Shown piece after piece: positions 3,590-4,415 of a DNA stretch of 64,000 bases. A program made the position numbers and the translations under genes. Below the pieces are notes generated by a model that worked only from the letters and a program-made list of their open reading frames with translations, had not been told where the DNA came from and did no database searches. Where the stretch lies: the NCBI RefSeq assembly GCF_027921745.1, contig NC_079238.1, positions 620,001 through 684,000 of the forward strand, written 5' to 3'. Source of the stretch: Schizosaccharomyces osmophilus. Lineage: Eukaryota. Numbering within the stretch: the first letter of the stretch is position 1; every line of letters starts with the position of its first letter.

Positions 3590-4415
3590 TCAATTCCCAC
3601 CGCTTTCAACATCCCTAGACTGACCCGGTTCCTGGCGCAACCCTGGAGATTGCTCAGTATGTTCAGAGGACGGTTGTTCGGCAGTATTATCACTACGATC
3701 GTTGGATTGATTTTCAGACTCTGCCGGCATAGTGCTTAGTGGGATCCAGTTACCATCCGTCGAGTCGTTTCTTTCCGACGACATCCTGAAACCAAGAGCA
3801 GCAATAATCCAAGAAACAATCCAAGCAATCCCAGAAAGCACTAAAGCAATAAAATCCAGCAACACTATAAGTACCCCATTAGTAAACATATCAAATTAAA
3901 ATTCCACCATTCCACTTACGTGAAAAAACAAATAAGAACATATAGAAAGCCACGACGAAAAAAACAACTGCTACAATAGCTTGAAAGTTTACCCCTGCAG
4001 ATCCTGCCATCGATTCCTTTATAAAGGGGACAAGGTATTTGTATGAAAACCAAAAGTCCAATACGATTGGACCAATAAAGCACCAACCAAGCCGAAGAGG
4101 TTCATTCTCCTGTCTTCCTTGTGCTTCAGGAATTCTCGCAATTTCTGCCGGCCAGAAAATCAACCACAATAATGCCGTCAAGACATTTCGTAAAAAAATA
4201 AAGAATCCATTTTCTCCTGCCATGTTGGTAGACGCTTCTTGATGTCTGTTTTCTGAGTACGGAGGTGCATGACCTTTTTCCAAGTCGTCTAGATGAGAAT
4301 TAAAGATTTCATTGTACCGTGGCAGTTCACCGTCAAACGTTGCAAGAGTGCCCAAGCGAGGAACGTCAGCTGAATCAGCATCTTTTAGCTTTTTGTATTT
4401 GTTTTTTTCAGTCAT
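3590..4415 (-). CDS. wag: wag (wtf-associated gene) multi-pass membrane protein, 256 aa; exons 4415-3920 and 3864-3590
   Basis: 55-nt intron GTAAGT...TACTAAT...TAG (3919-3865) joins the two track ORFs in frame; several hydrophobic segments; divergent from a wtf gene inside a 5S-flanked unit, the described wag arrangement. Confidence 0.75.

What the first reader, a model, noticed from the sequence alone, without database searches (positions are those of the whole stretch)
3590..4415. The Wag protein looks like a divergent Wtf/antidote relative: a possible second component of the drive system
Seen: Wag starts MTEKNKYKKLKDADS and the adjacent Wtf starts MKNKYTPISDSDDS (shared KNKY, YxxPhi, then an acidic patch). 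Wag has LPRY (4314-4325), DLEKG (4272-4286) and APPYS (from 4268) before its TM block; the Wtf has PPPYS and DLEMA. Wag's single intron is phase 1 directly after a TM helix (FYMFLFVFS|), like wtf intron 3 (FVLFLYLT|). Wag also has IPLSTMPAESE (3713-3745). Established: Wtf antidotes use N-terminal PY motifs to recruit Rsp5/NEDD4-family ligases and route the poison to the vacuole. From memory, S. pombe Wtf proteins contain DLEKG and end roughly IPLGEMDVESEV. Inference: wag is an old wtf paralogue, possibly an inverted duplicate that lost introns, acting as an antidote-like co-factor, suppressor or ubiquitin-ligase adaptor. I know of no assigned wag function.
Basis: partly seen in the sequence, partly recalled or inferred. 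Interest (0 to 1): 0.85.

Follow-up and report, generated by a model that had tools for sequence, protein, structure and literature searches.

The report
Wag: wtf look-alike, separate gene family
This fission-yeast gene beside a wtf spore-killer belongs to the named but unstudied wag family; it shares a likely ubiquitin-sorting tag and overall layout with Wtf but shows no measurable kinship, persists in a sister species where wtf has decayed, and may be a separate selfish poison-antidote gene rather than a helper of wtf.

Summary
The gene is S. osmophilus SOMG_00285, a member of the published wag family, in a 5S-wag-wtf-5S unit. Kinship with Wtf is not detected: profile-profile E 0.18 and 0.3, scores equal to shuffles, and no Wtf among 10 hits in 1.84 billion proteins. 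These tests are weak, because true Wtfs of this clade barely reach the S. pombe-based Pfam model. KNKY marks one subfamily (15 of 40); APPY is not a canonical PY; all four wtf introns here are phase 1. What holds is a conserved tail block, LPxY (39 of 40) then EKG then PxY, followed by a Met (37 of 40), 3-4 hydrophobic helices and a variable-length helical repeat, the layout of Wtf. Wag is not needed for wtf drive in cis: all five S. octosporus wtf genes with drive lack a wag, and S. cryophilus has 38 wag loci, 14 with coding models, none head-to-head with its 5 wtf. Best reading: an autonomous, likely PY-sorted family, possibly its own poison-antidote system. No function was tested.

The parts
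3144..3262 (+). 5S rRNA gene, left flank of the 5S-wag-wtf-5S unit
   Evidence: Rfam RF00001, 92.7 bits
3590..3864 (-). wag exon 2: last hydrophobic/amphipathic segment, then a polar acidic tail
   Evidence: spliced model equals P0001
3713..3745 (-). IPLSTMPAESE in the C-terminal tail; IPL in 20 of 31 Wag, 0 of 54 Wtf
3794..3862 (-). residues 167-189: hydrophobic helix holding the variable-length repeat region (18 aa here, 11-62 aa in 30 Wag proteins)
3865..3919 (-). single 55-nt phase-1 intron (GT...AG)
   Evidence: same phase in 19 of 19 published models seen
3920..4415 (-). wag exon 1: N-terminal tail and hydrophobic segments at about residues 70-88, 108-128 (below the hydropathy cut-off in this copy) and 146-164
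4221..4223 (-). Met65, in frame after both Tyr motifs and before the first hydrophobic helix; candidate start of a PY-less short form (inferred, no transcript evidence)
   Evidence: Met within 20 aa of the second Tyr motif in 37 of 40
4254..4268 (-). APPYS, second Tyr motif (PY-like, not L/PPxY)
4272..4286 (-). DLEKG; EKG in 40 of 40 Wag tails
4314..4325 (-). LPRY, canonical PY motif; LPxY in 39 of 40
   Evidence: motif definition from PMC10721834
4395..4406 (-). KNKY, a subfamily feature (15 of 40)
4416..5467 (.). shared upstream region between the divergent wag and wtf start codons
   Evidence: sequence; divergent orientation is the rule
5468..6604 (+). wtf gene, five exons (5468-5582, 5780-6013, 6059-6313, 6352-6468, 6525-6604); PPPY at 5567-5578; predicted poison ATG at 5806; its 1137-bp length fits the paper's osmophilus wtf29/wag16 row (match by length and layout only)
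7057..7186 (+). 5S rRNA gene copy with small insertions, right flank of the unit
   Evidence: Rfam RF00001, 61.7 bits

Best explanation
Wag is a separate multi-copy membrane-protein family that persists without wtf; its conserved LPxY tail likely recruits Rsp5/NEDD4-type ligases (Pub1/Pub3) that would send it to the vacuole, and the most likely single role is a self-contained, wtf-like poison-antidote element rather than a part of the neighbouring wtf's system. Shown: gene structure, motif conservation, no detectable similarity to Wtf, decoupling from wtf. Inferred by analogy with Wtf antidotes: LPxY binds WW domains, tail lysines (6 before Met65) are ubiquitinated, and the protein is sorted Golgi to endosome to vacuole. 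Inferred with less support: a product starting at Met65 lacks both Tyr motifs and those lysines and would be the toxic form, neutralised by co-assembly with full-length Wag of matching repeat length. The wag-wtf pairing would reflect copying of the whole unit between 5S genes. Step odds: not needed by the linked wtf about 0.85; PY-dependent sorting about 0.8; own poison-antidote role about 0.35.
For: Tail block LPxY-x(8-11)-[LM]EKG-x(2-20)-PxY in 38 of 40 tails whose first 30 residues vary widely. Met after the block in 37 of 40, against a Met frequency of 0.007 in the soluble parts (rows are related, so not independent); the Wtf poison start likewise lies just after its PY. Repeat region of 11-62 aa after the intron, changing in steps that keep a 3.6-residue register (R 0.75; Wtf also 0.75); the Wtf repeat affects poison-antidote matching. 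S. cryophilus: 38 wag loci, 14 with two-exon coding models, 5 wtf of which 2 intact; the two wag head-to-head with a wtf are 150- and 198-bp fragments. Turnover typical of conflict genes: 24 of 38 loci without a coding model there, 6 of 21 pseudogenes in S. octosporus, mosaic segments, segments nearly identical across species. A wag lies between two tdk driver genes. An unrelated driver family, Neurospora Spk-1, also has a PY motif plus membrane helices.
Against: No toxicity, drive, localisation or short wag transcript was shown here or found in print. wag has no early intron to hold a second promoter, and no convincing FLEX site was found (GTAAACA at 4452 is one of 59 matches in the window, and is changed in the relative's contigs). 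The Met is missing in 3 of 40, including two full-length copies (P0020, P0087). In S. octosporus 15 of 17 wtf-linked wag are intact but 0 of 4 unlinked ones, which fits dependence on the unit. The helical register follows from the repeat unit itself and need not mean selection. Ordinary host families also expand in these species (hsp16, 24 copies in S. cryophilus).
Confidence: 0.35

Rival explanations
1. Wag has an ordinary host function unrelated to drive (for example a stress- or spore-stage membrane protein). The PY motif only sets its turnover, and copies multiply because they sit beside dispersed 5S genes.
For: Conserved motifs and intact frames in three species; spliced transcripts in a relative; 5S-linked duplication is the paper's explanation for the unit; other host families expand similarly.
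Against: Restricted to three related species (absent from S. pombe); many decayed copies; variable repeat and mosaic segments like wtf.
Confidence: 0.3
2. Wag is a host suppressor or membrane-bound Rsp5 adaptor acting in trans: it binds toxic membrane proteins (Wtf poisons or others) and brings them the ligase through its PY motif.
For: PY plus membrane helices is the build of adaptors such as Bsd2 and Ssh4 (recalled; search listing only); tethering Pub3 to a Wtf toxin neutralises it. Wag-linked S. octosporus wtf genes make little poison transcript: 20 of 3128 reads against 203 of 7660; 0 of 14 against 12 of 34 genes with 7 or more short reads (Fisher p 0.01, threshold chosen after seeing the data).
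Against: Wtf antidotes rescue only closely similar poisons and Wag is not similar. The per-gene test of poison share is not significant (p 0.15) and 11 of the 14 linked genes form one clade. Fourteen coding wag models persist beside only one predicted wtf driver in S. cryophilus.
Confidence: 0.2
3. One reading: Wag is a co-factor or second antidote of the wtf gene beside it.
For: Head-to-head linkage in 20 of 42 S. osmophilus and 17 of 83 S. octosporus wtf genes; linked wtf are more often intact (19 of 20 vs 12 of 22; 14 of 17 vs 34 of 66). Published rescue by cognate antidotes alone was only partial, and poor for wag-linked osmophilus wtf41.
Against: wtf25, 68, 33 (drivers) and 60, 46 (weak) all lack a wag; poisons and antidotes of wag-linked genes act in budding yeast without Wag; intact wag beside wtf pseudogenes and the reverse occur; S. 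pombe wtf genes drive with no wag.
Confidence: 0.07
4. On origin, apart from function: wag descends from a very old wtf gene that lost three introns and diverged beyond detection.
For: Same order of parts: acidic PY tail of about 65 aa, inner Met, 3-4 helices, phase-1 intron, variable helical repeat, IxLxx[LM] in the C-tail (23 of 40 Wag, 45 of 54 Wtf; pattern chosen after viewing). DLEKG followed by PPYS is shared with S. pombe Wtf. Known Wtfs share as little as 16% identity between species.
Against: hhalign E 0.18 and 0.3; whole and segment scores matched by shuffles (23 of 30, 11 of 60, 31 of 40, 33 of 60); HMM cross-scores at most 4.3 bits, shuffles up to 15.2; Pfam WTF is hit at E up to 10 by 18 of 47 true Wtf but by none of 13 Wag queries; no Wtf among 10 hits of the Wag profile; no DNA similarity (best E 0.035); motif order differs from S. 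pombe; short sorting motifs arise repeatedly (inference).
Confidence: 0.25

Closest known systems
wag (wtf-associated gene) family, De Carvalho et al. 2022, PMC9562144
   Same: This gene is a member: two exons, divergent from wtf, between wtf and a 5S gene; homologues include SOCG_01108, 01136, 01438, 01871, named as wag in the paper's table.
   Different: Nothing in membership. In the parts read, the paper gives no function, motif analysis or comment on wag copies outnumbering wtf in S. cryophilus.
Wtf poison-antidote meiotic drivers (Pfam PF03303; PY mechanism in PMC10721834)
   Same: PY-bearing N-tail, in-frame Met after it, several hydrophobic helices, variable 3/4/7/11-residue repeat, multi-copy near 5S genes, pseudogenes and mosaics.
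   Different: No detectable sequence similarity; 2 exons, not 5-6; no intron 1 with a poison promoter; LPxY not PPxY; longer polar C-tail; repeat rich in S/I/F/L rather than IGNxxxG; no drive shown.
Neurospora Spk-1 spore killer
   Same: Membrane protein with a conserved PY motif in a single-gene killer (passage in PMC10721834).
   Different: No sequence comparison made; cited only as precedent that the layout recurs without kinship.
Membrane-bound Rsp5 adaptors (Bsd2, Ssh4; recalled)
   Same: PY motif plus membrane anchor.
   Different: Those are conserved, low-copy genes (recalled); Wag is clade-restricted, multi-copy and matched no Pfam family at its cut-off.

Membership tests
wag family | Homologous to genes named wag | tested here: met
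   51-57% identity to named S. octosporus wag proteins over exon 1
wag family | Divergent from a wtf, between it and a 5S gene | tested here: met
wtf family | Sequence or profile similarity to Wtf proteins | tested here: not met
   low power (control: 18 of 47 true Wtf reach PF03303, best E 1.4e-4); S. pombe Wtf tested only through the Pfam model
wtf family | Five or six exons with intron 1 between the PY tail and the poison start | tested here: not met
   two exons, intron after residue 165
wtf family | L/PPxY motif in the N-terminal tail | tested here: met
   LPxY in 39 of 40
wtf family | In-frame second start after the PY motif | tested here: inconclusive
   Met present in 37 of 40; use as a start not shown
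wtf family | Short meiotic transcript under FLEX/Mei4 control | tested here: inconclusive
   no convincing FLEX; only contigs of relatives available, which cannot show starts
wtf family | IGNxxxG-type repeat after the last membrane helix | tested here: not met
   a variable helical repeat is present, but of other sequence; segment score equals shuffles
wtf family | Same fold | tested here: inconclusive
   both models low confidence: pTM 0.22 and 0.29
wtf family | Poison kills, antidote rescues, drive in heterozygotes | not testable with these tools
   needs expression and crosses
membrane-bound Rsp5 adaptors | Binds the ligase and promotes ubiquitination of another cargo | not testable with these tools
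   PY motif present; no cargo known; complex prediction not available

The most novel reading that the evidence does not exclude
wag is a second, overlooked family of single-gene killer meiotic drivers in fission yeasts: full-length Wag is the PY-detoxified antidote, a Met65-initiated form is the poison, repeat length sets specificity, and the family has largely taken the place of wtf in S. cryophilus (14 coding copies against 2 intact wtf).
Probability: 0.2. Interest if true: 0.85.

Novelty: new variant of a known kind. Interest (0 to 1): 0.5.

Why it matters
wag has been a name without a function since 2022. The conserved PY block, inner Met and variable repeat give a cheap, direct test with assays already built for Wtf (PY mutants, DUB tethering, octad dissection). 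If Wag is toxic when unubiquitinated, the PY switch would be shown in a second fission-yeast family, and S. cryophilus, thought nearly free of wtf drivers, would carry a sizeable driver or suppressor family. The result also removes the idea that wtf drive needs a linked second gene.

Tried and rejected
No whole genome was held, so no proteome-wide null for how often PY and DLEKG co-occur, and no DNA of other wag copies (no dN/dS, no promoter comparison). A degenerate pattern for the S. pombe Wtf tail found 0 stretches in metagenome contigs, so Wag could not be scored against S. pombe Wtf sequences; the Wag profile found 382 pattern matches and no relative there. Structure models were low confidence; Foldseek on PDB gave no match at E 0.001; the ESM Atlas gave no usable feature hit. 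Complex prediction of Wag with Wtf was not available. Sequencing runs: no RNA holder listed; contig depths were not used to argue for a short isoform, since paralogues and subfamilies are mixed. The control laying of the same runs on an ordinary gene was not obtained, so the runs' divergence is uncalibrated. FLEX-like sites near wag were rejected as common. Reading DLE as a di-acidic ER-export signal is recalled only; the search found 0 papers with all four terms. A search on non-canonical PY motifs gave nothing usable. P0093 (E 3.8e-4, repetitive, unnamed) was dropped as a chance hit. Rows left out of the 40-tail counts: P0031, P0088, P0090, P0092 (fragments without the tail) and P0093. A3 used 26 of the 31 first hits and A4 47 of 54 Wtf, leaving out the shortest or truncated rows. 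Earlier scan notes: none found.

Full report
What is there. The window holds a 5S rRNA gene (3144-3262), a two-exon gene on the minus strand (4415-3590), a five-exon gene on the plus strand (5468-6604) and a second 5S copy (7057-7186). The spliced models equal database proteins P0001 (S. osmophilus SOMG_00285, 256 aa) and P0032 (named wtf meiotic driver, 266 aa). Homologues of P0001 include genes listed as wag in De Carvalho et al. 2022 (PMC9562144). That paper names the family and calls it uncharacterized; a 2025 preprint still does. Searches for wag with wtf, osmophilus, cryophilus or lindneri found no functional study in the held library, which lacks most subscription journals.

Observation. 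Each motif is at the stated place and the intron is supported by a spliced contig of run X1 and by published models: exon 1 is 3n+1 long in 14 of 14 S. cryophilus and 5 of 5 seen S. octosporus wag genes. Their weight differs. In 40 Wag tails LPxY is in 39, EKG in 40, the block LPxY..[LM]EKG..PxY in 38, PPxY in 0 and KNKY in 15. The KNKY tails form one tight group of 14 S. osmophilus copies and one decayed S. cryophilus copy, while the other tail type occurs in all three species (midpoint root only, so which type is older is not settled). IPL is in 20 of 31 Wag and 0 of 54 Wtf. All four wtf introns are phase 1.

Kinship with Wtf. Profile-profile comparison gave E 0.18 (10 Wtf) and 0.3 (47 Wtf). 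With 32 Wag and 47 Wtf, local scores for the whole protein, tail, helical core and post-intron part were reached by 23 of 30, 11 of 60, 31 of 40 and 33 of 60 block shuffles. Unfiltered HMM cross-scores peaked at 4.3 and 3.7 bits; shuffles reached 15.2 and 12.9. The Wag profile against 1.84 billion proteins gave 10 hits: 9 wag-like proteins of the three species and one repetitive chance hit. Pfam WTF was the top family for true Wtfs of this clade (18 of 47, best E 1.4e-4) and was absent for 13 Wag queries and from the 25 of 29 families shown for 31 Wag. The gene regions share no DNA similarity. The control shows how weak the test is, and both structure models are poor, so old kinship is not excluded (about 0.25), but Wag cannot be filed as a wtf.

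Is it part of wtf drive? In S. octosporus the three drivers and two weak drivers found by deletion all lack a wag. Poisons of wag-linked osmophilus wtf41 and cryophilus wtf1 kill budding yeast and are partly rescued by their own antidotes without Wag, though Wtf41 rescue is poor. The authors' S. cryophilus annotation lists wag1 to wag38, 14 with two-exon coding models, against 5 wtf (2 intact); the two wag that face a wtf are 150- and 198-bp fragments. Ten full-length S. cryophilus Wag proteins were also found directly. Against independence: in S. octosporus 15 of 17 linked wag are intact and 0 of 4 unlinked, and linked wtf are more often intact in two species; these counts are not independent of descent. 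Linked S. octosporus wtf make little poison transcript (20 of 3128 against 203 of 7660 reads; per-gene p 0.15).

How it likely works. Wtf antidotes use L/PPxY motifs to bind Pub1/Pub3, are ubiquitinated on tail lysines and go to the vacuole; without this they are toxic. Wag has a canonical LPxY, 4-6 lysines before the inner Met in five copies checked, and 3-4 hydrophobic segments, so the same sorting is likely (inferred; topology not established). A Met follows the second Tyr motif in 37 of 40 tails, as the Wtf poison start follows its PY. And just after the intron lies a repeat region of 11-62 aa whose lengths keep helical register, like the Wtf repeat that affects poison-antidote matching. 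With high turnover, mosaic segments, cross-species sharing and a position among wtf and tdk drivers, I take a self-contained poison-antidote role as the most likely single function (0.35), ahead of an ordinary host role (0.3), a suppressor or adaptor in trans (0.2) and a co-factor of the linked wtf (0.07). No toxicity, short transcript or drive has been shown, and wag lacks the intron that holds the wtf poison promoter.

Papers seen. PMC9562144: abstract, passages, sections 6 (part 1), 9, 11, 12, 14 (part 1), 58 (part 2); supplement 42 parts 1, 2, 43; file 11 part 4 (rows cut); file 6 parts 1, 155, 333; term searches in the files fetched (files 37-41, 43, 44 never searched; figures not held). 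PMC10721834, 10.1101/2024.08.27.609905, 10.64898/2025.12.28.696746, PMC13160552 and 10.64898/2026.01.24.701316: passages only; wag occurs 0 times in PMC10721834, PMC13160552 and the last. PMC2810449 and PMC6314561: search listing only. Supplements of the preprints were not seen and may mention wag.

Verdict. The gene family is known; its PY-tail anatomy and its independence from wtf were not found in print. Interest 0.5.

Noticed in passing
P0034/P0101 (S. cryophilus SPOG_01632) vs P0035; window 3864-3670 (Wag residues 166-230): The S. cryophilus protein is identical to an S. osmophilus Wtf at 186 of its first 190 residues (best S. octosporus 117), and Wag residues 166-230 match S. cryophilus P0020 at 61 of 65 (best S. 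octosporus 41), although average orthologue identity is 85.2% to S. cryophilus and 88.9% to S. octosporus. This suggests recent transfer of wtf/wag units between species; tested on proteins only.
   Followed up: partly
S. cryophilus chrI in supplement file 6 of PMC9562144: Several solo wag genes have a roughly 120-bp rRNA feature (labelled 5.8S, probably the 5S) 0.5-0.7 kb up- or downstream, e.g. wag9, wag17, wag13, wag14, as if the wtf had dropped out of a 5S-wag-wtf-5S unit. Only part of the rRNA rows was read.
   Followed up: partly
P0030 (SPOG_03602): A decayed KNKY-type wag lies next to S. cryophilus wtf2 (SPOG_03603), which the paper's table lists without a wag.
   Followed up: partly
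window 5583-5779: Intron 1 of this wtf has no full FLEX motif (only an ATAAACA core at 5662-5668), in line with the 'NO' in the wtf29 row; its poison may be weakly expressed.
   Followed up: partly
window 7057-7186: The right-hand 5S copy carries small insertions and scores 61.7 bits against 92.7 for the left one; possibly a degenerate copy.
   Followed up: no
window 2953-3024: tRNA-His gene 120 bp left of the 5S gene: a small Pol III cluster at the unit's edge.
   Followed up: no
window 8289-8738 (-): A 149-aa stop-to-stop frame downstream of the unit, not identified.
   Followed up: no
P0086, P0087, P0089, P0091: Divergent wag-family proteins missed by the word-based search but found by the profile; they keep LPxY and LEKG, and P0087 lacks the second Tyr motif and the inner Met.
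   Followed up: yes
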